Below are positions 156 to 47,169 of a DNA stretch of 64,000 nucleotides, one piece after another. The position numbers were made by a program, and so were the translations under genes. The notes under the pieces were generated by a model. That model was not told the DNA's origin and searched no databases. It saw only the letters and a list, made by a program, of their open reading frames with translations. Each line of letters begins with the position of its first letter. Position 1 is the stretch's first letter. Source of the DNA: Proteromonas lacertae (Eukaryota); assembly GCA_002245135.1 (NCBI GenBank), contig NGBS01001163.1, positions 124,001 through 188,000 of the forward strand. The letters run 5' to 3'.

Positions 156-3100
156 TTATTTAGCAGGAGATCTTGGTGGTGATGCAGTTTTAACTGATGA
201 ACTTCTAGAATGGGATTTAGGTGAATTACTGTTATTCTCTTCTTTATTCATCTCTTTTATTGATTTATTAATCTCTTTCAAAAAATCTTCATAAAAGAAT
301 TTTTCATTTTTACTCCATTTAATAAAGAAACCACTTTTATCATTATCTGATAATTCAGGAAATACAGACGACATTATTAAATCATATGTTCCATATTCTA
401 CATAATTCAAATTATCTCCATCATATCTATGAAACAGACTACAAATACTCTTCTGTAAATCAGGAATTAGAATTATATCACTTACTAAACTATCCATATT
501 TCGACGAATTTGAGTTCTTTCAGTAACTACAAATTCTTCTTTTTCTTTTTCAACTTTTCCAGATCTTCTACCTGAATATACTTTTGATTGTCTAAGAGGA
601 TGTTTTGGAGGTTTTGGTTCTGCACCATAAGCTGAATGACTCTCTGGTGGTGTTGGTTTCATAAAACTCTTCCTCTTGTTCTTTGGCATTGTAAATGACT
701 TGGTATATTTAACATAAGGTGATTCAGTTACTGACATTCGTGGTTTTGATACAAGAATACTACTTCTCGTGGAATTATTATTGTTATTATTATAATCACT
801 ATCATCATCATCACTTTTATATGTTGCCACAGATGATGAAGTATTTAATCTATTTCGTTTATAATAATCATCACTACTATTTTCTTCATTTTCATCATCT
901 TCATCCTCATGAATTGTTCCAAAACGATAAGAATCTAATTCACTTTCAGCTCTTATAACAGAATCTAACGCTGGAGATTTTCGAAGTATATCAGGCTTCT
1001 TATTTCCACCCTCTTCTTTTTCTTCTTCAACAATTTTCAAATCTTCATCAGATGGATTGGATGGATAGTATTTCTCTATTTCTTCTCTTCCCTCAAATAA
1101 CTGTGGATCATTTGAAGCTGTTAAATAAGGAGCATAATATGCATCTCTTTGAACCCATATTGGAGCTAATTCATTCTCAATAGCGATTTGTAAATCTTCT
1201 TTATTTAAATGTTGGATTTTTGAATTTACATCTAACGATTCTAATTTCAAGTCTTTTATATCAGGTAGTCTAAATGCAGAATCTGGAGCTATCCATAAAG
1301 GATTTTCACCCAAATCTTCAGCTTCTTCTGGTTGACCTTGACTTTCTTTAATTATTTTCTGTTCGAGATATCTCTTTGCTATTCCAGCCTTCATATTTTT
1401 CAATTTATCTAAATCACTTTCTTCCTCTCCTTTCTTCTTGTTTCTATTTCGACGAGATTTCTTTTTTCCTGATTTCTTTATCCATGAACTCCATACTTCA
1501 ATAGCTGCTCTTGGATGATCAGGTGAATAATCTTGATCATTATAAGTGACATAAACGGAAACAATTCCATCACTGGATTTCTTAAAAGCAGGAAATTTGA
1601 TTTGTAGTTTATTTTCACCAATATAATCAGGAATAAAACTAAATTCTTCCATACTTGTCTGATGTAATAATCTAACATGTAAATCATGAGTAAATTCGAC
1701 ATTCTTTGTTTCGATTGTTAACAGAAATTTACCATAAAGTGGACCATCTCTTGGAGCAACATTCCACACTAATGGAATCTCCTTATACAAATTATATTCT
1801 TTTAAAGGATAGAGAGGATCAATTTGATATAATGTTGATCCACCATATAAACAAACATCAACAGTCACTTTAAACTCTCTTGTTTTATTCTTACAATCAA
1901 TAAATGAAGGAACATTACATTGAATTGTTCCATCTTTCATATAAGTACCAAAGACTCTTCTATCACCTCCCCATTCACTATTAAACGATATTATTATTCT
2001 ACCAGTATCAGCAAAATTCTCTCCTTTTAATGTCATTACTGTTCCACCACATAATGGACCCCACAATGGAACAATCTCAGTAACAACAGGTAATACTTTA
2101 AACAAAACACTTTTACCATTTTCAGTATAATGCTCTTTATCCATTGTCACTTCTATAATACATTTTTCAGTGAATATTGATGGTGATTTACATTCTAATT
2201 CAGTATCTGATATTAGTTTAGCTTCTACATCAATTAACTCGCCTTTCTTTTCACCATCTTGTGGAATAAACCTAACAACTGGAATTATTTTACTATAGAA
2301 ATTAGCTCCTTTTACTATCACAATATCATTAAATGGACCACTCAACTGTAATTCTTTTACAACAGGTAAATCATATATCATAAATTCACAACTTTCTATA
2401 CCATTAACATAATTACAATCCCAATTTCTGCCATTTAAACTAACTTCAACAACTGCTTTTCCAGAAGATGGGAATTGTGAGGTTGTAAATACAATAAAAC
2501 CATTCTCAAAATTACCTGGAACAATTACTGGATCAAATTCAGAATTTTTAATAACTAATCTTACAACACACATTCCTGTATTTACTAAACCACTTCCTTT
2601 GATATATACTTTAGTATCACCAGTGATTAATCCAAACTTTGGTTCTATCGATTCTAATGTTAAAGGACCATAAACATCAATACACTTAGGTTCAGTATAA
2701 TAATGACCATTTAAAGAAAGTCTAAACTGCCAACTACCTAATTCATTAAATCTTGGAGTTTTAAATTGAACAATTCCACTTTTAACAATACCATGAGTTA
2801 ATAAAGAATGTACATTTGGTTCTGGACTTGTCATTAAGATTGATACTTTACCCATATCTTTCAAATTACCTCCAATTATTGATATTACTTCATTACCAGT
2901 AAAATGAAAAGCTGATGGTTTCATTTTCTTTATTACAGGATTTCCAACAATTGAGAAATATGTATCACATAATGAAAAATGTTGCTTATTATCAATAGAA
3001 ACATAGAATTTAATTTTACCTGGTGGTAATGTATCTGGAGTATTGATTAATATGTTATTCTCACATGACAATAATGTCATTTGTTCTTGAATAACATCCC

Positions 3101-5790
3101 ATAATTCTTTTAAACATACACGAATATTGATATTACTATAATCATTTCCAACACTTGTATAGAAATTATCTAAATATATTTGCCAATTGAATGCTACTGT
3201 TGGTTGTGTTGGTATAATCGTTTCAATACCACTTTCATGTACAATTTTAATATCACATTGTCCTGGAAATATAATATCATTTGCTACTAAATTAATAGTA
3301 GAAGTGTAGAAGTTCATTGCATATTGAGGAACACAACTGATTGAAAATGGTGGTTTCTATTTAACAGGAATTATATTAATAGAGATATATTATACAAAAT
3401 AAAAAAAGAGTAGTGGTTTAATCATGTAAAACTGTTGACCATTCAATGAAACTGATACTGTTACATATCCTGGTTGTTTTATTGCTGGCACTATTTATAT
3501 AATAATAACAATAATAATATATACTAACACATCTTATTTCTCTTAAAGATATAAACTTTACATCTAAGATAAACTCATCATCAGTAAATGTAAATACTCT
3601 CACTTTAATTGCATTTGTATCAATAAATCCTTTTCCAAAAATAGATATTTCAGTTCCCCCTGATAATGGTCCAGATTGAGGAAATATGTTATCGCATTTA
3701 GGTATCTGATAATATTTATAAAATATATTCGTTTCACAAAAACAATTATCTCCAAACCCAACATCAAGTCTAGCTTGTTGTGAATCAGAATGGCATGATG
3801 GTGTCACTGTGTAAAAACGATTATCGATTATTTCCACTGGAGTTATTAACTGTACATCTGCAAATCTTTCACTTCTCCATGACCATTTTACAGATATTCT
3901 TTTATTCTGTTCAATTAACTGTTGAACAAATGATTCTGTATTACCAAATATCAATTCTATTCTATCATTACCAACTAAATATCCCCATTCTGGAATAACT
4001 CCTAATAGATCTGGAACAAAGTAATAATTCACTTTAATAAATGATCCTGTATCATATGAAAAGTCAAAATTATTGTATGAGAAATCAACAATAGTGTCAA
4101 CTCCATTTACCGGACAATTATCAAGTTTTGGAAGTTTGCATTCTAATTCATAAGATGCATCAGGATCTTCTAAGTCCTGATATCTCCACGCTTCCTGTAT
4201 AAATGTTCTACCATTCATTTGAAATCTAATATAATACTCATTTGTTTCAATCACAGTATCTTTAAGAAGAATTGAAAATGGAATATTTCCACTGGATGGT
4301 ATGTTTTTTATACTGCAATTCACAACTGGTGGTGATATAAAATATCTAAAAACATTCACTCCTTCGCTCACAAATGTATCTGAATTAAGTGCAACATATA
4401 CTTGAGTTTCTTCTATTTTAGCATATTGAAATGTTTGTAATGCTAAATTTGACGGAGTTCTTAACTCTAATTCACCATTTTCATTCAATATTGCTGGTGA
4501 TATTCCTACTGTTTTAGTTGAACTAGTCATTTTACCATCTTTATCTTTTGACATTGTATTTACTACAAATTTCACTTTTATATCACCAGTATCTTGGAAA
4601 TAAGTATGTTGTATTTCTCTTTTAACTAATTGTGTTTGATTGTTATTATTATTATCTGATTCATGTAATAGTAATTTCATTTTCATTGGTGTATTTCCTT
4701 GCGCAACTCCATATTCTGGGAATATTCTTTCAATTATTGGAGGATAATAAACAATAAACTGTAGAATCTGCTTGGAATAAGAATCGCCATTATTCATTGA
4801 TATTTTTACATCATAAATACCATCTCTTCTCAACTATTTTAATATAATATATAAGCATAATACTTTCCCCAATGTGAATTTAATAGTATTTTCATCAGTT
4901 CTCCTTCCTATTACATTAAATACCTCTTTATCATCCTTATAAAAACCTATTATAATGTGATTAGATTTGAATATATTAATGCCAGTTAATTTAAAATCAT
5001 TATATCCATCAATTGGTTTACATCCTGGAGTGATTCTTCTAAATATTGGTTCATCATAGATCAATAAACTATCCATTGTATTTTCTTTATGTTCAGAATA
5101 AAGAAATCCATTCATTGTAATAGTAACAAAACACTTTCCTGTATATTCTAATGGAGGTTTACAGGTTAATACAATTTTATCATTCTTTGTTCTCTTTTGT
5201 TCTGCTGGGCTTATCACTTCTTCACCTGTTTCAAATTTGAATTTTACTCTGAAAATGACTTGTGCATCTCTTGCTGAATCTATACATTGATTTAAGCATA
5301 TATCAGGTATATCTTTCCATTTCTTTTGCTCTTCAGTTAGCATTTTTCTCCAATTGTCACACATTATGGATATTTCTAAGTCTCTCTCAAACGTTTCAGA
5401 TATAGCTGGAGGCATTACATTTGTTACATAGAATTCAGGCTAACATAAACTATAATAATATAATATACGAAATAATGGAATATATGTTGGTTATAAGTAT
5501 AATATCCATCCACAAATGCTTCTATAGTAGCATCACATTCATAATCGAAAGGTGGAATTTCACAAACCATTCTATAATCATTCTCAGATTTTGCTGTTGT
5601 GTATTTGATAGTGTTTTCGTGTTGAAATTTTACTCTAATTGACTTATTTGGAGGGAAGTTGTTTCCATATATGTATAAAGTTATACCACCAGCCATAGGT
5701 CCACATGATGGTTGAAAGTATGTTATTTCAGGTAATTCTATAGAAAATATGATAATTAATAATACTCTTTTCTATCTCTGTTGTACTCAT
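156..5790 (-). CDS. Large multi-IPT/TIG-domain protein (~1,800 aa, 6 exons), no signal peptide or TM; low-complexity C-terminal region with a degenerate EF-hand-like end
   Basis: ORFs 5424-5696, 4834-5415, 3418-4833 and 156-3317 join in frame through five short GT-AG introns from ATG 5790 (MSTTEIEK|KLPEITYFQPSCGPMAGG). Repeated IPT signature P-x-x-G-P-x-x-G-G-T-x-I-x-I-x-G-x-x-F ... V-x-V-S-L-N-G (e.g. IFPQSGPLSGGTEISIFGKGF, IVPLWGPLCGGTVMTLKGENF). Confidence 0.85.
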
Positions 5791-9068: not shown

Positions 9069-10363
9069 CTAATCACCTTCATTAATACAGCAAGAATGTA
9101 TAAATGTCGCTCCAGTCTCCATATAATCAGCTTTAGTCATTTTCTTTACATTACTAAAGTTAGATAATATTCTCTCACCCTTCCAAGTTGAAATTATTCT
9201 ATTATCAATCGATCTAACAGTGATTGGTGGAGCAGTAGGTGCAACCATAACCATTTCATTAGTCAATCTCTCAGCAAAATTAGGAAACAATGTAGTACCT
9301 CCTGCTAATATCAAATTACCAAATAATTCAGATCTAATCGCAGTATCACATCTATAAATAGAATTAACTATTCTTTTATGTAAAGGATCAACTGATGTTT
9401 GTGGTTCACTTTGTGCATATAAAAATTCTTCCTTAGCTTTTTGTAATTCCTCATCTGTTAGATTTTCCTCCACTTTTCCTTCTTCATCTTCTTCAGTATC
9501 GTCTTTCATTTGTTCTACTTTAATATCCTCCTGTACATGAGCATTTGGATCATCATAAAGAGTTGGATTGAAAATCAATTCTGATGAATTAATTCTTTCT
9601 TGGTTTAAGGCTAATAATGTGCCATCTGGTAAAGAATAAGATTCTTCTTTACTTGCTGAACTTTCATATTCTTGTAATTCTCTTTCAAAATCAAGGGCAA
9701 CATATCCATACAACTCTTTACATTTTTGAACATATAATCGATGTGTTGGTTCTGTGATATTATCATATAATCGATAGGATAATTGATGTGCTAATTCAGC
9801 TGTTATTGTGGAACCACCAAAATTGGTTACATCATAACCATCTATTGGAACACCATCCCAGAAACAACAAATCTGAGACAAATCTTCACCTACATCAACC
9901 ACACAGCCTGTAAGGAATCCTGTACCATATAATGATAATAGTGGTTGAGGATATATTGATACTTGAGGGATATTGTAATATTCGAACAAGATATCCACTA
10001 ATTTTTCTCTACTTACTGGATCGCAGAATAGTCTTTCACTAACAATGAAATTATATTCTTCTGTTGATACTTCTAATAATGAATCAACGATATAATCAAT
10101 CACTTTTTCAAAAGAATCATCACTACTAATAACTCCGTTTGTAACAGGTCTATCAATTGGATATTTTTCACAATGGGGAAATACATTATCTCCTACAACA
10201 GTATCATCAGAAGTAGTTGAAAAAGCAACTAAAGTAGGAACAATGAATCTTGGAGCAACATCTGTGGAGAAACCAACCTTTGTAAGTCCACTCCCAATAT
10301 CAAATAAAAGATCTATGATATAAATTTATATTAACAATAGCTTATACATGGTTTATCAGACAT
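9069..10363 (-). CDS. Divergent actin-related protein; 2 exons
   Basis: MSDKP|YLLFDIGSGLTKVGF...APRFIVPTLV; LSLYGTGFLTGCVVDVG; YSLPDG; LFGNLILAGGTTLFPNFAERL. These are actin-fold motifs, with an acidic insertion. Confidence 0.9.
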
Positions 10364-10447
10364 TTTCAAAAAAAGCGTTTTTGAATGAAAAAAACTCTCC
10401 CCAAAAACATTGAAAAAAGTACCCACAATTCAAAACGATTGATTTTT

Positions 10448-13400
10448 ATGTTTCAGTTATACACACTAGTTTTGCTAATAGTAAGTGTTACTTCATTAAA
10501 AGTAGGTTATATTTACCAGGATAGCTCAGATGGAGATAAAAACATCGAAATTATCACAGATTACAGTAAATATCTACTAAATAATACAGGCTATGAAATA
10601 CAAGTAGAGGAATGTAAATATTCTGGTAGTATAAACTTGGAAAAGGTGAATACATGTATGTACAAATACGAAGAAGATAATATAAATCTCATATTTGCTG
10701 AATGTAAGGCACACATATATATGGTAAGTGAGGAATACTTTAACAGAACAAACGCCCTTATTTGGTGCATCACAACTGTAGCTACTGGAAGATGTATGTC
10801 TCACTATGTCATAGGTAATTCAATGATTCCCACTTTGAAGACTTTACCATTCCTTATAGGTGATTATGCTCAAGCAACAGGTTATATAGGTGGAGGCGCA
10901 AATGTTGATGTTGATAACTTCTATTTTCAGCATCTAAGTGTGGCAAGTGATAGTGTAGGAGAAAATTTAATATATTCTGCTGTAAGAACATTTACATCTA
11001 CAGTAACTGTTGATAATGTGAAAGAATACGTTGAATTTATCAAAAATAGTAAAAATGATAAAACAACCACTTATGTTTATAACAACGATCCAACTATAGT
11101 AAAAGCTCTTATTGATGAATTATACTCAAATAATTTAAACACAACTTTTAATCCAATTATCTTTCTATCAGGTGGTATAACAACAGATGATATTCGAACA
11201 GCATTAGGAAGTGATATAGCTAATAATTTAAACAATATATACATGTCAGGATATGTAATTAAAGCTAATACAACCGATAATGACTTATTGAAAAACACCT
11301 ATCATAAAGCTGGAAGTGATTATTTTAATGAAGCATATATGATGGGAATAACAAAGATGTTATGTTATGCAATACAGAATTCTTATTCTACTAATCCATA
11401 TGTATTATTAACGACAATATATGATCGAATATTTGAATATCCAGGTGGACAAATATCACTATTAGCAAACCACTATACAACCACTACATATTATGGTTTG
11501 AAATTTGATAAAAATGGAGAAGTTGATTTGAAATATACTATTCCGATAATGATGAGATTTGAACCAAATGGTACATTAGATGATGTATTAACAGAGACCT
11601 GTAATTTTACACTAAATCCACAAACTGGATTATTCAATAAACCATATATAAATATACTGATAGTTCAAAATGTAAAAGGAGATTTTAAATTTGCCCAATT
11701 GATCGTAAGAAAGATGTTAATAGAATATATTAATGAAATCAACCTAAAAGGAGGAATATTGAATAAAGAATTGCAATTAGTATATGAGAATATGGGAGAT
11801 ATGTATGATAATGATGATGATGAGAGTAGTATAGAAGAAACAATATATAATATATTAAACAAAACTGAATTATATAATATAAACACAGTATTTCTATTCT
11901 CATCACCTGAAGTAAGACAAAAAATAACAAGTGAAGTATATAAAGAGAATGAAGATATATTGTTTTTATATTTTGGTCCTGTAGAAGGTGAGGAATGTAT
12001 TGATAATGTGATTTATACTCAACCAATATCATCTGCTTATATACAAACTCTTGTTACTCATTTAGCATCTTTACCTACAAGAGAAAAGATATTTATAGTG
12101 TCAAGTAAATATCGATTTGCTAATTTCACTACTAGGAATTTAATTAACTGAATTAAGTGCTTTAGACTATACTGAAAATGACTTACCATTTTCTGATTTG
12201 ATTAGTTTCAATGAGAGTTATATTAAAGGAATAGTTGAACATGATGTAAAACACTTTTTACCTGATGGAGGTATTATTATATTAACATGCGAAGATGCAT
12301 TTCAAAATGTATTATTTAAGGCGTTTAAAAATGCAAATATGACATCTGCAAATGGTTATTCAATTATTTCGATGAATTTAAACTCCATTACTGTGAAAAT
12401 AATTGGATATGATGTATTTGACAATCATAAGTATTTAGTTCATTATAAAGAAGGACTTCAACATAATTATAATGGTAATTTCTTAGTTCAATTTCATGAA
12501 GAAATGAATATGATGTTAAATGATTATTATCCAATATCAGGTACAATGGGAATATTGTATAATATCTATCAACAATGGGAACAAGCTGTCAAGCTTTGTG
12601 GATATACAAATCCAAAACAGTATAAAGAGTATATATACCACCAACCAATACCAGATCCAGCAGCAGGTCCATATGAAATATATTACAATGGCTATGCTCA
12701 AGCACAATTAAGAATTGTCCAAGTCACAAGTGATGGTGATTATAATATGATAATGGAAGATTATTTTGCTCGACAACCTCAAACCTATCAAAGTGGCAAA
12801 CAAACTTGTGATTGGCATGATCCGACAACCGAACCAGGTGGACCAATCAAAAGTTATATAATCGGTGTATTGTATGATGTAAGAACAACAAATGGAGTGA
12901 AAAGATATAATGAATTACGATTAATAACAGAAATGATTAATCAAGATGGTGGTATAAATGGAAGGCAGTTAGTTGTGAATCAAACGAATTATGATGATGA
13001 TTATAATCATATCATAACTGCAGCTAATCAATTGATTAATGATCCTGATTTCTTATGCTTCTTTGGTACACAAAGTGAAGAAGAAAGAAAAACAATTGAA
13101 CCATTATTAGAAGAGAAAGATAAGTTGCTGTTCGTATTTTTAGATTCTAATGGTGAAGTTACTTACAAGAATATTATACAAATGAGCTTTATTACACATC
13201 AATATTATACATATCAAATGTATTGGTTATTTGAACATTTTCAGAAATATGTAATTGTTCATTCATCTGATAATACTACTGTAGAAAGAGTAAAGTTTAT
13301 AAAAAGCTTGAGTGAGTTTGTAGAAAGACCAGATAATGGTGTTTATGTATTTGATGGTGGTAATGCTACTAATATAACCAATGAAATAAAAGATAAATAT

Positions 13401-16400
13401 CTAGATGATAATGCATGTATAGTAACATTGCTAGGAAGTTATACAAATGATTTTTTGTTTTATTACAATGAAAGTGGATTAACTCCAACTACTATTCCTT
13501 TATTAATAACTGATTTTACAATTAGAATGTTGAACGATGAGAATGAATTATTATTTTCTAATCACTATGGAGGTGAATCGTTTTATCGTAGAAGCAAATA
13601 TCCAGCAAATGTTGAACTATTTAATTATATTCAAACTTATAAAGGTAATCCAGATGATAATGTCAATCAGAATATGATAGTTATGTATGATGCAATCCAT
13701 ATATTAGTAACTGCTTTGGAAGGAATTGCTTCTACAGATTCACAGACGTTAAAAGATGCTTTATATGGTGTAAGATTGGATATGCCAAATGGAAAAATGG
13801 GAATTATTAATAACAACTATGCAACTACTCATTTCTTAATTGTTAAAATTAAAGATGATAAAGATGTTATTGAAGTGATGGATTTACCATTTCCTATTGT
13901 TCCACATCCTTGGTATTTCTTAAATAATAATCAAGACTATTATACTACTGATTTCTCAATAAGTGGAGGAGATAAAGATAATGTAAAAGAAAGTAAAGAT
14001 TATTATGGAATAGCCTTCTTCTTAGATATAAAAGATGCAAATAATAGAGGATTTTTAGATTTTATATTAGTGAATCTATATATAGAAACAGCTAATTATA
14101 ATGGTGGAATAAAAAATAAATATGTCTATTCTGAAGTTTATCAATGTCCAACAGATGATGGTGAAGCTGCTAAAAGGTTAATGATATTATATAGAAGGAA
14201 ATTTAAGATTATAATAGGTGGTTGTTCAGTTCATACAAGAGATATAATGACTGAATCCTTAGAAGCTTTAGATTTCATATTACTTTACACTGGTCCAAAC
14301 TCAGGTCAAAAATGTTCTAAGAATATAATATCACTTTCTACACATCCTACACAAGATGTTTTACCATCAGCATTACATTTATTATATAGAGAAACAAGAT
14401 CAATATCATTTATATATTCAAATGAAGTGGATTATGATGGACAGGTCAAAATGATTGAAAGTATATTTGAAGCATTTAATGTTCAATTTGCTGATAAGAA
14501 AAATATTGATCCAACTAGTACTTCTACTATAAGTGTTGATATTGAATCAGCTTTATATGCATTACATCAAAGAATGCCAAATGGTGGTGCAATTCTATTA
14601 TTACTCTCTAACTCAGCAGTTGAACAATTCTTAGAAATATTTTACAAGTATTTTTCTGAATCATTAAATTTGCAGGATTCTAATGAAATAGCTAAAATCT
14701 TTACACTTTATATTATTGATAATACCCATACAGAATATAATAGACTTTATGCTGATGGTCATTATGTATATTCACCCTATAATATTGATGCAAGTAATCA
14801 AGTATCAACTGATTTTGAATCTACATTTCAATCTATCGCAGATAGACAACATGCTACATATCAAGATGCATTATTGTCAAATGCTATTCAAATAATGTTA
14901 ACTACATTAGAAGGTGCTACATCATCTGAATTTGAGGTAATTCGTAAACAGTTATATGAAACAGAAGTTGAAACTGTATTAGGAACAACAAAGATTGATT
15001 CTGGCAATATAGTGATTCAGAATATGAATTTTGCTCAGATAATTAATGGAATTGTTACACATGTTGATGTATTACAGTCGAACCTACCTGGTGAAGCTTT
15101 TAGAGTTGAATTTAATCGAAAGAAATATACTGTTTGTAATTGGTTATATAATATTGAATATTTAGAAGTTAAAACAATCAATATTGGCTTGATATTACCA
15201 TCCAAAGTAATCTACAGAAAAGAAGGAATTGAGTTTTATCAAGGTATTTTTACAGCAATAGAATATACCAACAGAAACAACGGAATTAAGGGAAAATATA
15301 TTGTACCAATAACAATGGTTGATGGTGATGATCCAGAATATGCTAAGAATATAATGAGGGAATATATTAAAGAATATAACATATTCATCTTCTTAGGAGG
15401 TTGGACAACTGAAATAAGAGATGCTTTACATGAAGTTGCATTAAATACAAGTAGTATATTATTCTATCCCAATGATTATGAAGGTGAAGAATGTCATTAT
15501 AATGGATATTATTTAGGTTTATCTTATTCATCCTTCTTTACATTCCCAACAATTATAAGAGGTGTAGATGAAGGTAATACTATATTATTATATAGTAACA
15601 CATATTATTCAACTTATTTTGCCCAACATCTTACCGAAGATTTAGCTGTATTTGATGTTAAATTGCTATTATCTTTACAAATACCTGTAGAGAATGAAGA
15701 TATGAGTGAAGTAGTATCACTTATTAGTAGAGTAGCTCCAAGGAATGGTATTATATTGAACTTATTAGATGGTAATTCAAAAACATCACTTGTTATAATG
15801 ATGAAACAGAATGGTTTAGTACCTCCAAAATATTACTCTTATAATTTGAATTTTGACGATTTAACTGTGATGGAAGTGGAAGATTCAATAGGTGGTAATT
15901 ATATATTTGATTCATATGACAGTAGTAAATTAGATGATTCTACATTAGCATTATCAAAATCATTTGATAAAGAGTTCTTATCTTATTGGACATATCTAAA
16001 GGCTACTAATAAAGTGATTGGTAGAGGAATTACAGCTGTTGAAATTATAGCAAATGTAGGAAATCAATGTGAGAATTTTACTTATAAAGACTTTAGAGAA
16101 AATTTATATACAACTAAAACAAAGACGATATTAGGGGAATTGACGTTTTCAGAGAATAATCAATTACCAAACCTTGTATCAGTAGAATCAAAAATATATA
16201 ATCCAAATGATGGTAGTATTGATAGTAAAATGTTATATAGAACCCAAGTATCTATTATATCTCGGCCATATGGTAATATATTAAGAAATGAACCAGTAAA
16301 AAGATGTAATTTAAGACATACGAGTGATATAGAAACTATAAGTGTTAAATATATTGCGTTAATCTTCTCCGTATCAGGTTCTGAAAGAATAACACATGAA

Positions 16401-19400
16401 AATGCAATTTATGGAGCTTTAACTGCATTACATTACTTATATGATAATGAAATGGGTGAATGATAATATATTATTAATGAAATTAGTTGATTATGGAAGT
16501 GATAATGAAGTATTAGCAGAAAAATTGAAAGAATTAGAAAATGATGATTCAATTGTTGCTTATTTAGGATGTACAAGTCCAACATGTAAACGAATGGTAG
16601 AACAAGCTGCTAATAAGAATAATAAACTATTCTATTATCCAAGAATAACAGCAGGACAAGAATGTGATTATAATACAATCACTACCAGCATGGTTGCAAA
16701 TCAATATGTTACTCGATTTTTAGAATATTTAATTTCTACTAAATATGAGTCTTATATTTATATTATTGCTGAAGAAACTACAGCTTGTACAAACTTGATG
16801 AGTATATTTGAAGATGCTGCTCAAGGTTTATTCACTACGAAAGGTAGGTTTATAATCTCAGATTCAAATCCATTAACTATCAATGTAGTTGAGAATATAA
16901 CTAATGTTTACTTACCAGATGGTGGTATAATAATTACAATATTTAGTTTACCTGGTTATTTAAAGAAGTTTTTAGAATATCAATATAAAATGCATATAGA
17001 CCATACAAAATGGGGTATAGCTGATGCATTATTAGAAATTGAAGACACAAACGGTATTCCCAATGAACATTTAACTGATTTATTAAAATATAGTCGTTAT
17101 TTTATGGATATAAATACAGAAAATAACCAAAAATTTGGTCAAAGATATTACCATTATACAGCCCAACAGAAAATCACCAGTTTAGCAGAAGCATCCTATT
17201 CAGGAATATTATTATATGCCAAAGCAGCACAAAAGGCCGAATCCTTTGATACTGATTTAATACGATCAGCTTCACATGGTATAAGTGTCGATTCAGGTAG
17301 TGGAACTGTACAAATTGCTGATAATAATTTCGTTGATTCTCCATTCTTTGTGGCACAGTTCCATAGTGATGGTAGTTATAGTACAATCTATAGTAAATAT
17401 GATGTACAAACACCTTCCCCTTGGAGTTGGAATATTGATTCAACTTATGGATTAATGTGTTCATTCTTAACAGAGAAGAAGCCACAGTATGAAGTTCCAG
17501 TGAAAAGAACAGTTTTAATTGCGTCTTTAACAGGTGTTAATGCGATTGATACTCAAGGATTAGTTGATATTTACCAAATGGCTATTAATGATATAAATAA
17601 TAATAATGGTGGAATTGGTGGTTATACTATCAAACCAGATGTATTTGATGTTCAATCCAATACTGAATATTGTAAAATAGAGATTCCTAAATATATGAAA
17701 CAATTCGAGCCATTAGTTATATTTGCAGCTATTACATCTGAATGTTATGAAGCAGTATATCAACAAATGGAAATACAACCAACGCTCTATGTTGAATTGA
17801 ATAAAAAACCTCAGGATTTCTGTAATAGATATGTATTAGTTGCTGTAGAACATTCTACATTATATAATCCAATTATAGATGTTATTAGAAATAGGTTTTA
17901 TGATAATATATTGATAGTTACCTCTACTGGAAGTAATAATAATATTGATGAGAGTGAAAATCAACATGATACTTCATTATATATTCAATCATATTTCAAG
18001 AAATTTTATGTCGATTTTGTTTCTTACAATACTAAAGAGGTAACAGAAAGTGAGTTATTGGTGAAGTTACAGGAATATGATGAATTAGTGAAAGAGAAAG
18101 GATGTATATTGTATTTTGGACATGTTGATTCATTCAAAGTGTTTATGAATACATTACAATCAAAAGGATATACTGAACCTAAACATCATGTGATAGTAAT
18201 GGAGAATAGTAATTTATTCAGAAGTTTAGATCATTATGGTTATGAAGAAGTAGAATTCTACCAATCAGATGAAGAAAGTGATGTAAATAAACAATTCAAA
18301 GAGAAAATCTATCAAAGAATCGATACTACCACTTACATTAGTGATTTAATGATTAGAACTTACAGTGCAATAAACCTATGGGCAAAAGCAATTAATACAT
18401 TACCATTAGAAGATAAGAGTGGTTTTATGGTTGCTGATGTTGATGTTAAGAATGTAAGAGCAGCAATATTAACAGTTGAAGATACATATCCAGAAGGTTT
18501 AGTGTATTTCGGTAAAAATCAATATTTAGCTCGTATTCCTAGATTGACAAAGTTAAATCAAGATAAATCCACTACATTGGTATATACATCAATGTATGCG
18601 AGATTACCAGAAGCATGGGCAAATACAGCAGATGGTAAGTTTAGAAAATGTGATTTTACCAATGAAGATATTGAAGAAGATAAAGTAGTAAATACTTATC
18701 TAATTGCTATTATATTATCACTTTCTGGTAAAGATAGAGAGAAAGAAACTCCAATATTACAATCTGTATTAACAGCAATTGATAGAATTAACTTAGATTC
18801 ATTATTATTAGATAATTATATAAATTATGACTTATACAATGCTGAATCGAATGATACTAATTATATTAAATATGCTAAAGAGATAGTTGAAAATAAGAAA
18901 TATGATTATATATTTGGAGGATATAATCCTGAGACTTTAATAGAAATTGGTCATTTATTTGATAATACCAAACAGCTATTCTTCTTCTTAGGTAAATCAT
19001 TAGGTACAAATTGTTATAGTAATACAATAATCTCTTATTTACATCCTTATCAAATAGCTGATGCTACAATTCGAAGATTATTAGAATTAAGTTCAAGTGC
19101 ATTTTTAATAAAATCAAAAGATACTTATTCTAATATGATTGCTCAATTAATAACAGATAAAATGCAGAATCTAATTATTACATCGAATGGTAATGTTGAA
19201 TATAGTGGTGGTGGAACTACAGGCAATAAGATAATTAACGATATACAAAGAGCTTTACCTAATGGAGGTTATATATTAACAGTAATGGATATTGAAGCAG
19301 ACATTATTGATTTTTATAAATACTTCTGTAAATCATCATTGAAATATCCAACTTACACTATTATCAATGTGATATTGAATGAAAATACTATTCAGAAATT

Positions 19401-22203
19401 AGATAAATCATGTTTGAATGGCTTTATTATCATTGGATCTTATTTTGAATCAATTGGTAATGAAGATATGACTGATTTAGCAATTCCAGCAGAAGCTCCA
19501 ACTTATAATACATATTTCCATATTCGTATAGGTAGTATTTATGCTACAAGTGAATATGAATCAGCTTACTCAGCCTTTGAACTGTGGAAAAACATTGTAA
19601 GAAAAGTCAATTCATTTGAATATGATGATATTAAATACTTATATCATTATTATGTAGATGTACCATCTGACCAATTAGAAGTTAATCCTAATAATTATTT
19701 CAACAGAAGAGTATTTGCTGGTACAATAGATCAGAATGGTAATATCAGAGTAAATTGGGGACCAACAGTTACATTTAAACCACAGATATATGATCAATAT
19801 AATGATAGTGAAATAGGATATATATGTGATTTTAGTGATGAAAATAAAGGTGAGCATTACAATACAAATCCAATTATATTATCGTTTATTCATGAGAAAG
19901 ACTTAGGTGGAAAAACTGAGAAATATAATGCATTACTCCAAGATATGGTGATTAATGAAATTAACTCATTAGGTGGAATATTAGGAAGACAATTAGCAGC
20001 TAATCACACTTGGTTAACTATAAATGATGCTTATAGAAATGTAAGAGCAATAGTTGAAACAGGAAGATCAGAAACAATATTAGGAGGAATAACTGCTGAA
20101 TGTAGAAATGAAGTGGTTAGATATTTACAATCTCATGATTTATTATATTTCTTTACTGGGAGAGATGATGGAACTCAATGTGATGAAAATACAATAACTT
20201 CTGGTTTGTCAATGAATCAAAAAGTAGATGCGTTATATTTATATATGACTACATTGGAATTAACCTATGTATATTTTGTAGGAAGTGATAGGAATTCAAC
20301 ATTAACAGAATATCATTTATTTGAAGAGAAATTCAATGGTTCAAAGTTTACTTTCTTAGGAACATCTTTCTTTTCACCATTCAATAAACAAGTAACAACT
20401 AATGTAATGAATAAAATAGATGCATTATTTGAAGAAGTAGATAGAATAGCATTAATCAATCTATTTATTGCTAATGAGAATAGTGAATTTTTACCATATT
20501 TAACTAGTAGTCATAACTTTGCATCAATGACAAATATATTTTTAAAATATGATCCTTCTGATATTTCATCAAAGTATAGTTCAGTATTAGCTGGTTCTTA
20601 TGTTGTATCTTCATATGCACCAAGTGTATCTAATACAGCATCAGGCACATTCCAATATTTAACAACATCAGAATATCAAAATGCAATTACACTCTCTGAA
20701 TTATATGAAACAAGTTATAGTACAATCTATATGTGGAAAGCAGCTGTAGAATATTCAAAGACATATGCTTCTAGTGAATGGCCTAATAATGAGTATATTC
20801 GATTGAGTTTAAAGTATGTTACATATGATGGTCCTAGTGGTAGTAGTTCAATCATTAATAATAACCATGCAAAGAAGAATGTTTATATATTTAGATTATT
20901 AGATGGTGATATTACACAAGTTTACCCAAAACAAGGAATTGAATATACAACAGAAGGTAAAATGACATATAGAAGTGAATCAGATTGTTCATTTTCTAAA
21001 AATATAAAGATTTATGAATTAAATAATGTTACTCAATTAGCAACAATTGTTTTAGATATAATTAATACATTGTTATGTCTATTTATTGCATTAATTGTCT
21101 TTATATTTAGACATACGAAAGTTATTAAAAGTGCCAGTCCTTTGTTCTTATATTATACATTAGTTTCATTGATATTCTTAGCAGCAATTGGTAATGTATT
21201 CCCATCTTTACCAGATACTCAATTTGTATGTGAAATGAGAATATGGGGCTTAGCCATAACTATAGATTTTGTATTTAGTATAATGTTTTGTAAAGCTTGG
21301 AGAATTCATAAATTATTCAACAATAAAGAATTAGCAAGAGTAAAAGTATCAAATACTATGTTATTGAAGATGATTGGTATTATTTTAATGGGACAAATCA
21401 TTTATTTAATCATTTGGACTGTTGTTAAACCATCAAAACCAATATTATCATTCTCTACAGGTTATTCTACCTATTTAGATGATGTATTTATTCAAGAATG
21501 TACTTCAAATATTATATTTGTTGTTATACAATTAGTTGCAATTGCTTTAATATTCTTATGGGGTGCAAGACTGGCATGGAGTGTGAGAAAAGCATCAGCT
21601 GAATTTAATGAATCAATGTCTTTAATGTCAACTATTGGATTAATGTTAATTATGGGTGTGATATTAGTTCCTTTGGATTATTTAATGGCTTCAGAACCTG
21701 ATACATTATCAATATTAAGAAGTATGGGTATTGAAATAGGCGTATTTGCTATTATTATATTACAATTTGGAAGTAAGATAATGTATATTTGGAATGTTGA
21801 ATTAACTACTACTTTTGGATCTTCTTCTTTACTTGGTGGAAGTAGCAGTATGAATAGTTTACATCAAAAGTCACAAGCAATGAAACGAGCTGCAGCTCGA
21901 GGTAGATTTGCAGTTAAACCGAATTTAATGGAGTGTTTACCCATCACATTAGCAACAATATCTGAAGCTGAGAGATTCTTCGATGAAAGAGCTGGAAGAA
22001 CTAATTCTGTTGGAACACCTATGAGTTTTAGTCGTAAACAGTCATCTTTAGCTCATCCTAGTGGAAGACCCAGTGCTAGACCAAGTGCAAGAATATCAAA
22101 CGCATCTGCAGCTAATCCTAACAATGTTGCTATAAATACAGCCGTTGGTGTATTAAGTCCTATTACACCAATAAGAGAGAGAGCAGAATCTGGTAAACAC
22201 TAA
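10448..22203 (+). CDS. Giant class C (GABA-B-like, 7tm_3) GPCR with signal peptide and nine tandem periplasmic-binding-protein type 1 (UrtA/AmiC-like) domains; two apparent single-base frameshifts (~12145, ~16455)
   Basis: Signal peptide MFQLYTLVLLIVSVTS. ~390-aa repeats with IN-x-x-GGI-x-GR-x-L, FLGGWT and LFYPNDYEGEEC motifs. The 7TM region (~21030-21790) has the class C hallmarks KVIKSASPLF, CEMRIW, KAWRIHKLFNN and EFNES. Three consecutive ORFs break in the middle of domains. Confidence 0.88.
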
Positions 22204-22346: not shown

Positions 22347-23378
22347 CTATATTCCTTTAACAATTTCATTCTCTTTTTGAGCTGCCCATTCGCACCAACT
22401 ACCATCATACACTTTCACAGATCCTGGAGCTGTTCTTCCAAGTAAATGCAAAGCAAATGCAATATAGCAAGCAGTACAACCAGAACCACATGCACATATT
22501 ATTGGTTGTTTTTGTTGAATATCAACACCTATTTTCTCAAAGGCTTGTCTCAATTCATCAAGACTTCTCCATTCAGGTATAACTGGTTTGATTAATTCAG
22601 TGAATGGTATATTCTTACCACCAGGGATATGTCCTGATGATAACTCTACTCTTGGCTCTGGGTCTTTACCTATAAATCTTCCATAACTTCTAGCATCGAT
22701 GGTTGTAAATGGAATTTTTCCTTGCTTATATAAATTAATAGTTAATTTAATTTGGTCCATGTTAACCACTCGGTTCTTGAAATCACTATCACAAACGTAA
22801 GGATGTTCACTTTTGACTGGTTTTATAGTGTTATCAGTGACAACTGGACTATCTTCATCAACCCATTTCTTTAAACCGCCATTTAGAATGGCTACAGGTT
22901 GATTTTTGTTGAAACATTTGAAAGTCCACCATAATCTTGGAGCTGTAACTGCATCTGCATCATCATAACTAATAAGTAAAAAAAAAATAAACATTTTATA
23001 AATACACAATAACAGTATCACTACTGTTTATACCCAAATTTTCACAATATTCGCTAAATTCCTTTTCTGTTGGTAACATATGGGGGTATGGACTTTTCTT
23101 ATCGCAACATTCATTTATATCAAAAAAAGCAGCATGAGGAATGTGGATCTAACACAAATTAGTGTTTGAAGAATACTTGGTCAAATTTCTTTTGAAATCC
23201 TGGGAATGGACTCCATGAACAGTCTAAAACTTTAACATTGGGCTTGTTGTAATGAGCTCTAAGCCAATCAGTAGTAACAAGTCCTAGAACATTATAAATT
23301 GCTTATACCTGTTTCAACGCCATATGCCATTGATGTCATATTACGACTAGCTAGTTTTGCACCACGTAAGAGATTCAT
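22347..23378 (-). CDS. MPST: 3-mercaptopyruvate/thiosulfate sulfurtransferase (tandem rhodanese) with probable mitochondrial/MRO targeting peptide; 4 exons
   Basis: LVTTDWL, HIPHAAFFDI, PHMLP, APRLWWTF, LNGGLKKW, DARSYGRF, GHIPG, active-site CGSGCTAC, YDGSWCEW. N-terminus MNLLRGAKLASRNM is Arg-rich with no acidic residues. Confidence 0.92.
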
Positions 23379-30359: not shown

Positions 30360-33300
30360 TTAATTAGATTCTTCTTTAATTGGATCAGGATCTATTTCAT
30401 TATGTATGGGTGATGTTAAAGGTTCTAATCTTACAGAGTGAACTGATGCGTTACTTACTTTCACAGCTGATCTATTAGTGTTTTCCATTACATTAGGCAT
30501 TACAAATTTATCTTCTTCATCTGTTGTATCACCTCCACTATCTTCTACTTCCTTCTTTTCTTCGTCCTTATTATCTTCTTTATTTTCATTATTTTCACTC
30601 TCTTCATTATTATTTTCATTATTTTCATTCTCTTCGTTATTATCTTCTTCATTTTCACCATTTTTCTCTTCTTTATTCTCTTCATTCTCATTCTCAGTTT
30701 CATTTCCTTCTTTATTCTCATTTTCATAGTCTGGTCTTTCAAATTCTTCATATTTAACTGGTGGTAGTTCAATCTTTTCATCTTCTTTTTCTTCCTCTTC
30801 TTCTTCATCCTCTTCAATTTCTCCTTCCTCTTTTTCATCATCTGCAACTTCTCCTTCTTCTTTCTTTTCTTCTTCTACTTTTTTCTCTTCATTTTCCTCC
30901 TTCTTTTCTCCCTCATCTTCTTTCTTTTCTTCTCCAACTGGAGTAGGATTAACATTGTTATTTTCTTCATTATCTTTTTTTATTACAACTCCTACATTAT
31001 CAGCATCAACAGGTTCTTTCTCATTAATTGGAACAATTTTATACGTTTGACCTTTTCCATAATTCGTTAATATCATTTTTGAGAAGAAAAGAGGTAAAGC
31101 AAAAACAAAATACATCAACCCCATCCACCATATTGAAACAACCATTCGACTAAATCTACCAACTACATCACAAATTAATACTTCTACTACCGAATATACA
31201 ATCCTGCTTAATGAATTACAACCAATTACATCACCTAATTCTATAATTAATGTTCCTAGTGTATCACTTAATTGATCAATTGTAGAATTTACTATTTTAA
31301 CTGTTTCATCTCCAAGTTCAATACTTCCAAGTATACCATCTTCTCCATTAATCATATCTTTAGCAAAATCAGTTACAGTCTCAGCTGCTTTACCAGTAAT
31401 ACCTCTTATTGGATTTTCTTCACCTTGTAATTTACATGTTCCTAATATATTACCCAACAAAGGAGTAATTTGTATATCCATTTTTAATTCACTTCCCATT
31501 AAATCAAGTGAATATGTACAATTTGGTTTATTATCATATACACCACCAATCATATTACAGATTGATGGTTCAACATCTTCTACCATAATATATACTTCAT
31601 TTCCTAAACCATCACCAATATCTCCAATTAATAATAATAAAGCCATTACTATGGAGGTTATAACCATACAAGTTGAACAACAACAACAACCACAACAATT
31701 AATACAACACCAACTACATTTCATACAACATTTCCATGTAAAGAAAACACAGAAAAGAAGTAATATTTGTATTATAGCAACGAAAAATCTATTTATATTA
31801 TTCATAAAAATTATACGGTATTATAGCAATATAGTCCAATATATAATGAATGTAAGTTTTTATATACCATATAGCCTTATCCAAATACATTCCAACAATC
31901 GGAATCTCATCTTGAAAACTTATATCTAAGGGATCATCAGCCATTAATCCTTTAAAATTCATGCCTTCTAATATTAATCTAATTGATCTTTCAATACAAC
32001 CATATGAAATACACATTTCACCATTATTTCTCTCTTCCAACATCGAATTTGACATTATATAACCTTCATCATCTTTAATTGAATCAGATAATAATTTACC
32101 AGCAAATGTAAGGTAGTCTAAGGAATTACCTTCTATATGATCAACATCCCATACTTTATTAACATCACGTTTAATATCAGTCCAATCATCAGTTTGGAAG
32201 TATTTTATTGTATTATTATGTGTTTTATTAGGTGATATTACTCTATATATATTAATAGAAATATATTATATTATACGATGCATAAACGATGTTTAATTGA
32301 TCTTCAACAGCTTTAAATGCATTATCCAATTTACTCTGTTTCGTTAATCTCTGTAATTCTGATTCATTAAACTTTGATAATACATCATACACAGGTTGTT
32401 CAAGGAAATTACTAACATTATTTATAAAATTGGTAAATCCATCTTTATTATCATAAGCATTACACATACCTAACTTCATTTCATCACTTAATGATGTTAC
32501 ACTTTCGTCAATTTCAGTGCAATTTACTCCCATCAATTCTGTTGGACTTCCTAATACTGAAGACATACTGTTAAAATCATTAACATATTCATCCATATTA
32601 ATTTTATTTATTTCTTTTTTAGCCTTTGCAATATCACCAACAGAACTGTCAACTTCATCTAATCCAAAATCACCACTGGCAGAATCATTAACTGCACTTG
32701 TCTATAGGAAAATAAGAATATATAAAATACAAATTGATCAATTGTGGTTGGTAATTCTTCATACAACTTATTAATAGATTTAAGTGCAGTCTATTAATAA
32801 TAAATAAAATATATATTATACACAATGTGAGAAATAACCAGTTGCTATTTCATCTCCATTTTCTATATATTTATCATATGCTTCCATATTACTAAAATAA
32901 CTTTTGGAGTTAATATAACAGTTTTGATTAACAATATTATCTATAACATTCGATTTATAGCTACTGAATGAAGAATCATAACCACTTGGAAAATCAAATG
33001 TCTTTGGTGAATCATTACAATCTCCATCACCATCACAATCTCTATCATCTAAACATCTCTTGGCTTGATTAAGACTACAATATCCATATCCCACAAAACT
33101 CATATTACAATAACTATTTACTGATGGATCTGCTGATGGAGTTGTTGTTGTTGTTGTTGTATCCTTTGCATCAGGAGGTGAACATCTCTGATTAGTACTA
33201 TTTAAACCTTGAGTGAATATTTTATTCAAATTACTTGACTGTTTATATAAATCATTAGTATGTATGCCACATATTGTAGCTATGACACTTTCTTTGCTTT

Positions 33301-45589: not shown

Positions 45590-47169
45590 ATGAAGAATTT
45601 AGCAGTTCTTTGCTTACTCTTTGCTGCTTCTTATGCTGCTTTGAGACCAAACATTCTATTCTTATTAGTATTACCATTATTTTACTTTTTAGACCGATGA
45701 TATGGGTTATGGTGAAATTGGTGTATACCCATCCGGATCAATTCATGGTAAATTACCTACTCCAAATATAGATAAGTATTAATAACCTATTCATTTTAGA
45801 CTCGCTCATGAAGGAATGATGTTTACTGATGCTTATGCTGGAGAGCCAGTTTGTGCTCCATCACGTTGTAGTTTAATGACTGGTCGTCATACTGGTCATA
45901 CAATCGTCAGAGGTAATTATTTTACCAATAATAGTGATTTACCTCTTCGTGAAAATGATTTCACCATTGCAGAATTATTAAAGGTATATTTACTAATTGA
46001 GGAATATAAATATAATCATATTTTTAATAGACTGCCAATTATTCAACTGGATTATTTGGTAAATGGGGTTTAGGTGCAAGTCACACAACCGGAGCACCAT
46101 GGAAGAAGGGTTGGGATTATTTCTATGGAGAATTAGATCAAGCTCAAGCCCACAACATGTATCCAACCAAAATCTGGGATATGGACAAACACTTGGACAT
46201 TCCTGAGAACATAAACGCCACACGTGAAAGATGTATGATGAAAAATACAACCTGCAAATGGGTACATGATTTATTCACAGATAGTGCCTTTAAATGGATA
46301 GAACAAAGAAAAGGTGAGAAGAATCCTTGGTTTGCATTTATGTCCTGGACTGATCCACATGCTGGTGGCTATAAAGGAGTTGTTGAAACAGGAAATCCAG
46401 TACCAAGTAATGATGATTTTAAAGATGAACAATGGCCAGATGTTGAGAAAGATCATGCTGCTGCAATTTCTACATTTGAAGATAGAGATGTTGGAAAATT
46501 TGTTGAGATGTTGAAGAAGTGGGATATGTATAATAACACGTTGATAATATTTGCAAGTGATAATGGTCCTCATGCTGAAGGTGGTCATTCTTATAAAGTA
46601 TATATATATATTATTATTATTATATATTTAATACTAATAGTTTTTTAATTCTTCTGGACCATTAAAAGGATTTAAAAGAAGTTTATATGAAGGTGGAATG
46701 AGAACTCCTTATATTTTCGTATATATATATATATAATTTTTATTATTATTAATAGCATTGGGATGGTCATATTAAACCAGGTCAAGTAAGTAGATTCCCT
46801 ACTGCTTTTTGGGATATAATGCCTACACTTGCTGATTTGTCAGGTGCTAAATTAGATGGTAAAGAAATAGATGGTGTTTCTATTTTACCAACTTTATTGA
46901 AGAATGGAGAACAGAAGGATCATGATTATTTGTATTGGGAATTTTGTACTAATGAGAAATGGGGACATGCTGTAAGAATTGGTAATTACAAAGCTGTTAG
47001 TTTTGCAAAGGATGAAAATTATGAATTGTATGATTTAGATACTGATGTTGGTGAAACTCATAATATTGCTGATCAACATCCTGATATTATAGAAAAAGCA
47101 AAGAAATATGCTTCAGAAGCTCACGAAGATAACCCATATTTCCCCATCAATAATTGTGTAAGTTCATAA
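45590..47169 (+). CDS. Secreted formylglycine-dependent (family S1) arylsulfatase-like enzyme; multi-exon
   Basis: Signal peptide MKNLAVLCLLFAASYA; RPNILFLL|TDDMGYGE; TPNID; CAPSRCSLMTGRHTGH; GKWGLG; SDNGPH; LKGFKRSLYEGGMRTP; ELYDLDTDVGETHNIA. Confidence 0.93.

What the first reader, a model, noticed from the sequence alone, without database searches (positions are those of the whole stretch)
12855..19870. Receptor ectodomain repeats resemble bacterial urea ABC-transporter binding protein UrtA, suggesting lateral acquisition then internal amplification
Seen: FLGGWTTEIR, LFYPNDYEGEEC, GQKCSKNII, AGQECDYN...ANQ, and repeat-terminal motifs such as KPQIYDQYNDSEIGYICDFSDENKGEHY, TPSPW...CSF and QTCDW. 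From recall of the family, UrtA (particularly cyanobacterial) has FGGWTSASRK, YPVQYEGQECSKNI and a C-terminal P-W...G-Y-x-CDW-x-D-x-x-KG, including this Cys pair. Animal flytrap domains do not look like this. The ~11.7 kb gene also has no clear intron, unlike most neighbours. Inference: a bacterial transporter subunit was recruited as a GPCR ligand-binding module, possibly for urea or amides.
Basis: partly seen in the sequence, partly recalled or inferred. Interest (0 to 1): 0.8.

Follow-up and report, generated by a model that had tools for sequence, protein, structure and literature searches.

The report
GPCR with nine bacterial urea-binder domains
This eukaryotic gene encodes a class C G-protein-coupled receptor whose outer part is nine tandem domains most similar to bacterial urea-binding proteins and likely taken from a cyanobacterial-type gene long ago; this copy lacks most urea-contact residues and likely senses other small molecules, while relatives in other eukaryotes keep the full pocket and would be candidate urea-sensing GPCRs.

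Summary
Observation confirmed. The gene (+, 10448-22203) encodes a predicted signal peptide, nine ~390-aa periplasmic-binding domains (12-23% identical to each other) and a GABA-B-like 7tm_3 domain. A profile of the repeats scores UrtA structures 192-206 bits, AmiC 94, LivJ-type at most 36, and lists no animal flytrap domain; a predicted model also ranks cyanobacterial UrtA first. The gene is intronless but carries two +1 frame breaks, absent from a 3886-aa homolog.
Three corrections. (1) The fusion is not specific to this lineage: UrtA-type domains plus 7tm_3 occur in Capsaspora, a chytrid and unnamed GC-rich eukaryote-type proteins. (2) Their slow repeats group with cyanobacterial-type UrtA (98/95); the window's long-branch repeats fall in the same branch in a quick tree, but an AmiC-like placement is not rejected (AU p=0.17). 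(3) The window repeats keep only 0-3 of 8 urea-pocket residues, so urea binding is unlikely here; five repeats of relative P0004 keep 8 of 8.
Bacterial binding proteins on class C receptors are a known theme; I found no description of the UrtA type or the nine-fold array. New variant of a known kind.

The parts
10448..22203 (+). Intronless class C GPCR gene, about 3,917 codons read through with X at two breaks; an upstream in-frame ATG lies at 10385
   Evidence: homolog P0001 starts at the equivalent of 10448
10448..10495 (+). Predicted signal peptide
   Evidence: hydropathy peak; no dedicated predictor run
10496..11638 (+). Repeat R1, most divergent; no UrtA HMM hit on its own
11639..12845 (+). 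Repeat R2 (holds frame break 1); pocket 3 of 8
12146..12149 (+). +1 frame break 1 (one extra base against homologs; assembly error or recent lesion)
12846..13985 (+). Repeat R3; lacks the Cys pair; pocket 0 of 8
13986..15173 (+). Repeat R4; pocket 1 of 8
15174..16343 (+). Repeat R5; keeps W120, Y141, E146 equivalents; pocket more conserved among orthologs than background (0.58 vs 0.36)
16344..17496 (+). Repeat R6 (holds frame break 2); best TIGR03407 score, 120 bits; pocket 1 of 8
16452..16455 (+). +1 frame break 2
17497..18687 (+). Repeat R7; pocket 1 of 8
18688..19863 (+). Repeat R8; predicted fold closest to cyanobacterial UrtA; pocket 0 of 8
19864..21024 (+). Repeat R9, membrane-proximal; basic pocket (R, R, K) nearly unchanged in 2 orthologs
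21025..21798 (+). Class C seven-transmembrane domain (7tm_3), joined to R9 by a short stalk with no cysteine-rich domain
   Evidence: Pfam 7.7e-37; seven long helices in the model; best PDB sequence hit GABA-B2, 52 bits
21799..22203 (+). Ser/Arg-rich C-terminal tail, predicted cytoplasmic
   Evidence: sequence

Best explanation
The gene encodes a class C (GABA-B-like) seven-helix receptor with nine tandem UrtA-type binding domains, likely descended from a cyanobacterial-type urea-binding protein that fused to the receptor long ago, and it likely works as a cell-surface sensor of small metabolites other than urea. Shown: the architecture, the UrtA-clade affinity, the loss of the urea-contact residues, and the presence of the fusion in other eukaryotes. 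Inferred: each domain is a disulfide-closed clamshell; some (R5, R9, perhaps R2 and R8) have re-tuned pockets, R5 acidic and aromatic (amine- or amide-like ligand) and R9 basic (anionic ligand), while R6 and R7 are likely spacers; closure is passed through R9 and the short stalk to the membrane domain, probably in a dimer as in GABA-B, and switches a G protein. The two frame breaks are most likely assembly errors.
For: Pfam Peripla_BP_5 on 8 of 9 repeat rows and 7tm_3 at the end. The repeat profile against PDB gives UrtA 192-206 bits, AmiC 94, LivJ-type 36 or less, and no GABA-B, mGluR or ANF ectodomain among 44 hits to E=10. The R8 model (pLDDT 90) has Z 44.3-44.5 to three picocyanobacterial UrtA, 41.3 to Caldicellulosiruptor UrtA, 40 to AmiC and about 32 to GABA-B. 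Ten slow eukaryote-type repeats plus six cyanobacterial-type UrtA form one branch at 98/95; with all nine window repeats the branch has SH-aLRT 97. Among six bacterial profiles the cyanobacterial-type one scores best for 152 of 185 AT-rich homolog repeats and 6 of 9 window repeats. Of 53 GTDB UrtA-type frames (none titled as cyanobacterial), 1 has the first Cys and none has the LPxGG loop or the terminal GYxCDW motif. Pocket 0-3 of 8 in the window and at most 4 of 8 in 185 AT-rich repeats, against 8 of 8 in five P0004 repeats and in P0033, P0052 and P0055. P0049 is Capsaspora and P0061 is Phlyctochytrium. GC3 0.15-0.18 matches three neighbours, 0.14-0.21, so the gene is native to this genome. 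Identity to P0001 stays 65-91% along all nine repeats, rising after the breaks.
Against: The tree cannot pin the window's own repeats: forcing them with AmiC-like proteins is not rejected (AU p=0.169), and with a LivJ-type outgroup the root falls among the long eukaryotic branches. Three of 9 window repeats score best to kinase-fused bacterial UrtA-like domains, by margins of 4-6 bits. Only 2 of the 8 'cyanobacterial-type' rows are named as cyanobacterial; the group was defined by motif and drawn from the search with the window's profile. The R8 model was folded on a UrtA-rich alignment. Pocket conservation across ortholog groups is not significant overall (0.50 vs 0.43, p=0.06), and R9 rests on 2 orthologs. 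Pocket mapping at about 20% identity is uncertain for the second-lobe sites. No expression, ligand, dimer or G-protein evidence was obtained.
Confidence: 0.6

Rival explanations
1. One reading: this receptor still senses urea or a small amide through one or more repeats, most plausibly R5.
For: R5 keeps the W120, Y141 and E146 equivalents, and W, Y, D, E recur in 4 of its 5 orthologs. AmiC-like proteins bind amides with a partly different residue set (AmiC-acetamide structure titles).
Against: R5 lacks the S122, Q144, Y190 and N246 equivalents; mutating any of these in UrtA strongly lowers or abolishes urea binding (PMC10392092 passages). No window repeat has more than 1 of the 5 essential residues.
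Confidence: 0.15
2. The array has become a mostly ligand-free rod (adhesion, spacing or protein binding); signalling is constitutive or set by a dimer partner, as with the non-binding GABA-B2 flytrap (recalled).
For: R6 and R7 pockets are less conserved than the rest of their domains (0.25 vs 0.42; 0.21 vs 0.40). Membrane-proximal repeats have lost the pocket in P0004, P0033, P0049 and P0061 too. 23 N-glycosylation sequons in the ectodomain.
Against: R5, R9 and R2 pockets are more conserved than background, and the full two-lobed fold is predicted with high confidence for R8 and R9.
Confidence: 0.17
3. This copy is a recent pseudogene: the two frame breaks are real and no full-length receptor is made.
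For: Two +1 breaks in 11.7 kb, while a 9.8-kb frame elsewhere in the window has none. Only the second break sits in a short G run. Reads could not be examined.
Against: No in-frame stops in the three segments; identity to the intact homolog is 69%, 77% and 86% over the three frames, with no decay after the breaks.
Confidence: 0.12
4. On origin only: several independent fusions, or eukaryote-to-eukaryote transfers, rather than one ancient fusion inherited vertically; the nine-fold arrays of the window and of P0004 arose separately.
For: The chytrid 7TM is only 20% identical to the window's, against 34% for Capsaspora and 30% for P0004. No position-by-position match between window and P0004 repeats. 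Eukaryote-only monophyly is weak (73/96; 79). Distribution is patchy.
Against: Window, Capsaspora, P0004 and P0033 7TMs share visible motifs and score 116-118 bits against 52 for GABA-B2; all eukaryote-type repeats fall in one branch with the same bacterial type.
Confidence: 0.4

Closest known systems
UrtA urea ABC-transporter binding protein (TIGR03407; PDB 8HIC, 7S6E, 7S6F, cyanobacterial)
   Same: Fold, length, Cys pair, LPxGG loop (4 of 9 repeats exactly) and C-terminal extension; top sequence and structure match.
   Different: About 21-23% identity; 45-120 bits against a cut-off of 492.75; urea residues lost; nine copies in one chain on a 7TM domain rather than a free subunit of an ABC importer.
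GABA-B receptor (class C GPCR without cysteine-rich domain)
   Same: 7tm_3 domain with best PDB sequence hit GABA-B2; flytrap joined to TM1 by a short stalk; top Foldseek rows for the R8-R9-7TM model.
   Different: One ANF-type flytrap against nine UrtA-type ones; no sequence match between the ectodomains to E=10.
Non-animal class C GPCRs with bacterial-type binding domains (Bmp, OpuAC, SBP_bac_1, LysR_substrate, PBP_like_2; gut-fungal SBP type II receptors)
   Same: Same theme: a prokaryote-like solute-binding domain on 7tm_3 (PMC3251606, PMC5168858, PMC3971589 passages). A generic 'Peripla_BP//7tm_3' label is in the PMC3971589 supplement.
   Different: Those texts do not contain 'urea' and name no UrtA-type domain; the ectodomains they report reach 1,600-1,667 residues, against about 3,500 here.
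AmiC amide sensor and bacterial UrtA-like domains fused to histidine kinases, sigma-54 activators or protein kinases
   Same: UrtA-clade domains used as sensors rather than transport subunits.
   Different: Bacterial, mostly one domain, no 7TM; most lack the LPxGG loop and the terminal Cys.

Membership tests
Class C GPCR | 7tm_3 domain above the Pfam cut-off with seven helices | tested here: met
   127.7 bits vs 33.5; seven long helices in the model
Class C GPCR | N-terminal type I periplasmic-binding (flytrap) ectodomain | tested here: met
   nine repeats; Peripla_BP_5 on 8 of 9 rows
Class C GPCR | Dimer formation and G-protein coupling | not tested
   no complex prediction or assay run
mGluR/CaSR subgroup | Nine-cysteine domain (NCD3G) before TM1 | tested here: not met
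   no NCD3G hit; R9 has 3 Cys in all
Eukaryotic ANF-receptor flytrap | Ectodomain closer to ANF/GABA-B/mGluR than to bacterial binding proteins | tested here: not met
   no such hit among 44 to E=10; Z about 32 vs 44; ANF_receptor weak on 3 of 9 rows, best E 2.9e-4. No eukaryotic flytrap sequence was in the trees.
UrtA (TIGR03407) | Score above curated cut-off 492.75 | tested here: not met
   45-120 bits per repeat, none for R1
UrtA (TIGR03407) | Urea pocket W120, S122, Y141, Q144, E146, Y190, N246, S274 | tested here: not met
   0-3 of 8 in window repeats; 8 of 8 in five P0004 repeats, P0033, P0052, P0055
UrtA (TIGR03407) | Stand-alone subunit of a urtABCDE importer | tested here: not met
   fused to 7tm_3; flanked by actin-family and rhodanese genes
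UrtA/AmiC clade (Peripla_BP_5) by descent | Best sequence and structure matches within the clade | tested here: met
Cyanobacterial-type UrtA subclade | Grouping of slow eukaryote-type repeats with cyanobacterial-type UrtA | tested here: met
   98/95 in the careful tree of 39 rows
Cyanobacterial-type UrtA subclade | Grouping of the window's own repeats with it | tested here: inconclusive
   SH-aLRT 97 in a quick tree, 6 of 9 by profile, but AU p=0.169 for the AmiC-like alternative
Urea-sensing receptor | Measured urea binding and response | not testable with these tools
   needs binding and signalling assays

The most novel reading that the evidence does not exclude
An undescribed, ancient family of eukaryotic GPCRs built from cyanobacterial-type UrtA, with up to nine flytraps in one chain, spans opisthokonts and other protists. 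Members with intact pockets (P0004, P0033, probably the chytrid protein) are urea-sensing GPCRs, and the window's lineage expanded the family into dozens of paralogs whose repeats were re-tuned to other metabolites.
Probability: 0.4. Interest if true: 0.82.

Novelty: new variant of a known kind. Interest (0 to 1): 0.62.

Why it matters
Animal class C flytraps are too diverged to name their bacterial donor. Here the donor type can be named, and relatives preserve the stages: intact urea pockets at 45-49% identity to Synechococcus- and Alkalinema-type UrtA in P0004 R5-R7, and eroded pockets in the window's lineage. That makes the question of how class C receptors took on bacterial binding domains directly testable. 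The intact relatives give a precise ligand prediction for orphan protist and fungal GPCRs; my search found no urea-sensing GPCR in print. A nine-flytrap ectodomain also raises the question of how distal domains signal to the membrane.

Tried and rejected
Mini-introns at the frame junctions: rejected. Removing 12105-12135 leaves a stop. Removing 16456-16486 restores the frame but deletes a strand that 9 of 9 aligned homolog repeats keep without a gap. Bacterial contamination: rejected by 7tm_3, intron-split neighbours and matching GC3. Recent duplication: rejected, no DNA-level repeat. Position-by-position orthology with P0004: no signal. Word-index homolog searches were weak: 1 hit, none, 2 hits with no new eukaryote. 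ESM Atlas gave only generic 7tm_3/ANF or Bmp clusters; its clusters need 50 members, so this is no evidence of absence. The plasmid search returned proteobacterial urtA in the 25 rows shown of 1,623. The metagenome scan gave 1 short eukaryote-type fragment among 9 loci. No whole genome is held and no reads were examined, so copy number, G-protein genes and the frame breaks stay unchecked. The organism was not identified; a recalled Blastocystis-type 3' motif is not enriched (5 found, 5.84 expected). FastTree with a LivJ-type outgroup gave long-branch joins and was set aside. Earlier scan notes: nothing found. No complex prediction was run.
Full report
1. What is there. The region lies inside one + strand gene spread over three stop-to-stop frames, 10385-12151, 12144-16463 and 16423-22203. 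All seven motifs searched are present. Read through with X at the two breaks from the ATG at 10448, it gives 3,917 residues without a stop: a hydrophobic N-terminus, nine repeats of 380-402 residues, a 7TM domain and a tail. Repeats are 11.5-22.7% identical to each other and show no DNA-level similarity. Pfam gives Peripla_BP_5 on 8 of 9 repeat rows and 7tm_3 at 7.7e-37. The window is 28% GC, gene-dense, with intron-split neighbours. The organism was not identified.

2. The frame breaks. P0001, an unnamed 3,886-aa protein, aligns across all three frames at 69%, 77% and 86% identity and has no gap at either junction. Nine of nine aligned homolog repeats run through the second junction; at the first, the two close homologs of three shown do so. 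My mini-intron idea failed. So the gene is intronless with one extra base at each of two sites. Assembly error is the likelier cause, but this is inference: no reads were examined.

3. Which family. A profile of the nine repeat pieces against PDB sequences gives UrtA 8HIC 205.7 bits, 7S6E 198.2, 8TG1 196.8, 7S6F 192.4, AmiC 94, then LivJ-type proteins at 36 or less; none of 44 hits to E=10 is a GABA-B, mGluR or ANF ectodomain. The R8 model (pLDDT 90.4) ranks the three cyanobacterial UrtA structures first (Z 44.3-44.5, rmsd 3.2 A over 375 residues), then Caldicellulosiruptor UrtA 41.3, AmiC 40.0 and GABA-B 32.2 or less. The model was built on a UrtA-rich alignment, so this is not independent. 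The repeats are not UrtA members by score: 45-120 bits against 492.75, and none for R1.

4. Relatives. A search of 1.84 billion representatives with a repeat-plus-7TM profile gave 170 proteins at E<=1e-30, of which 150 were listed. Of these plus P0001, 30 of 151 carry both repeats and a 7TM by local search; P0061 adds one by Pfam. Sixty-one were classed as AT-rich by amino-acid composition; the 13 of them I looked up are unnamed Logan proteins. In the longer ones the order R5-R6-R7-R8-R9-7TM recurs, so the array predates this paralog expansion. A second, GC-rich set has the same fusion: P0004 (nine repeats, 2,937 bits to Peripla_BP_5, unnamed, starting mid-repeat), P0033 (JGI), P0049 (Capsaspora owczarzaki CAOG_05347) and P0061 (Phlyctochytrium bullatum KAJ3101170) (29 of 150 were Pfam-scanned). 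P0052, P0055, P0109, P0123 and P0188 are tandem-repeat fragments without a 7TM and are only presumed eukaryotic. 7TM identity to the window is 34% for Capsaspora, 30% for P0004, 28% for P0033 and 20% for the chytrid.

5. Donor. Eukaryote-type repeats share three marks with cyanobacterial UrtA: a Cys after the YEG motif, an LPxGG loop and a terminal Cys motif. In 185 AT-rich repeats the two Cys are kept in 169 and 163. Of 53 GTDB UrtA-type frames, none titled as cyanobacterial, 1, 0 and 0 have the three marks. Four of 8 AmiC-like rows do have both Cys, so the pair alone is not diagnostic; a disulfide is inferred, not shown. A careful LG+C20 tree of 39 rows without the long-branch repeats joins 10 eukaryote-type and 6 cyanobacterial-type rows at 98/95, with the split between them at 73/96. 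A quick tree of 64 rows (21 of 85 dropped: 8 LivJ-type, 13 other bacterial) puts all 9 window repeats in that branch at SH-aLRT 97. Against this: an AU test does not reject window-plus-AmiC-like (p=0.169), and a LivJ-type outgroup attracts the long branches. Profile scoring favours the cyanobacterial type for 152 of 185 AT-rich repeats and 6 of 9 window repeats. Only P0069 (Synechococcus) and P0059 (cluster mate named Alkalinema) are named among the 8 cyanobacterial-type rows. I put UrtA-clade origin at about 0.9 and a cyanobacterial-type donor at about 0.7. Presence in opisthokonts, which have no plastid history (established knowledge), argues against plain plastid gene transfer. One ancient fusion versus several cannot be settled here.

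6. Ligand. PMC10392092 (passages) names nine pocket residues, eight conserved; S122, Q144, Y190 and N246 hydrogen-bond urea and W120A does not bind. Mapped through P0069, window repeats keep 1, 3, 0, 1, 3, 1, 1, 0 and 0 of 8, never more than 1 of the 5 essential ones; 185 AT-rich repeats reach at most 4 of 8. In contrast P0004 R2, R3, R5, R6 and R7, the full P0033 repeat, P0052 and P0055 keep 8 of 8, and the first chytrid repeat 6 of 8, its two misses lying in a stretch that looks mis-spliced. Membrane-proximal repeats are eroded in all four GC-rich receptors (0-1 of 8). Among orthologs, pocket sites are more conserved than background in R5 (0.58 vs 0.36), R9 (0.89 vs 0.55, 2 orthologs) and R2 (0.67 vs 0.46, 1 ortholog), and less in R6 and R7; overall p=0.06. 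Second-lobe sites are mapped at about 20% identity and may be off.

7. Mechanism. The R8-R9-7TM model (pLDDT 88.1, pTM 0.79) has two complete flytraps, a short stalk and seven helices; Foldseek ranks GABA-B first by E-value but with TM-scores near 0.27, so the domain arrangement differs. Inferred from class C biology (recalled): ligand closes a flytrap, the dimer rearranges and a G protein is switched. For this copy the likely ligands are small metabolites other than urea, with some repeats acting as spacers. Bacteria already use UrtA-clade domains as sensors on kinases and sigma-54 activators.

8. Literature. Bacterial-type binding domains on non-animal class C receptors are known: Bmp, OpuAC, SBP_bac_1, LysR_substrate and PBP_like_2 (PMC3251606 passages; its supplements gave no hit), SBP type II in gut fungi (PMC5168858 passages), and a generic 'Peripla_BP//7tm_3' label in the PMC3971589 supplement (passages; supplement text; one file was not searched and figures were not visible, so the Capsaspora protein may be counted there). 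'Urea' does not occur in those three main texts, nor in PMC10445921 or PMC8687355 (passages). Searches returned no paper; in one search none of the 30 listed of 100 held both Pfam names; listings 63, 70, 94 and 99 showed none on a UrtA-type or urea-sensing GPCR. The library lacks most subscription journals. bioRxiv 2024.02.22.581678 (passages) concerns a different family and adds nothing.

9. Verdict. New variant of a known kind; interest 0.62. The strongest lead is in the relatives with intact urea pockets.

Noticed in passing
P0004 (unnamed, 3,745 aa): Nine UrtA-type repeats plus 7tm_3; five repeats keep all 8 urea-pocket residues. Best candidate for a urea-sensing GPCR.
   Followed up: yes
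P0039, P0042, P0047, P0050, P0121, P0149: About 1,500-aa proteins with a Peripla_BP_5 domain at each end, one hydrophobic segment in between and, in four of the six, HEAT, NACHT-associated or AAA domains; presumed bacterial, function unexplained.
   Followed up: no
window 30360-35436 and 36149-41377 (-): Tandem pair of multi-exon genes with Cys-rich hydrophobic segments, 72-79% identical in DNA; no Pfam hit on three pieces.
   Followed up: partly
window 50863-60708 (+): 3,281-residue open frame with He_PIG and weak PA14/GLEYA hits, Pro/Thr repeats and one hydrophobic segment; looks like a surface protein.
   Followed up: partly
window 45786-47169 (+): Intron-split sulfatase; origin not tested.
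   Followed up: no
window 156-4833 (-): Long frames with TIG/IPT repeats.
   Followed up: no
window 9069-10325 (-) and 22347-23027 (-): Immediate neighbours are a divergent actin-family gene and a rhodanese; no functional link seen.
   Followed up: partly
L106 1-111: Inverted copy of an internal coding stretch of the same contig; probably an amplification or assembly chimera.
   Followed up: no
P0066, P0085, P0087, P0142: AT-rich cyanobacterial-type UrtA-like proteins of about 530 residues with long N-terminal extensions; P0142 keeps only 2 of 8 pocket residues.
   Followed up: no
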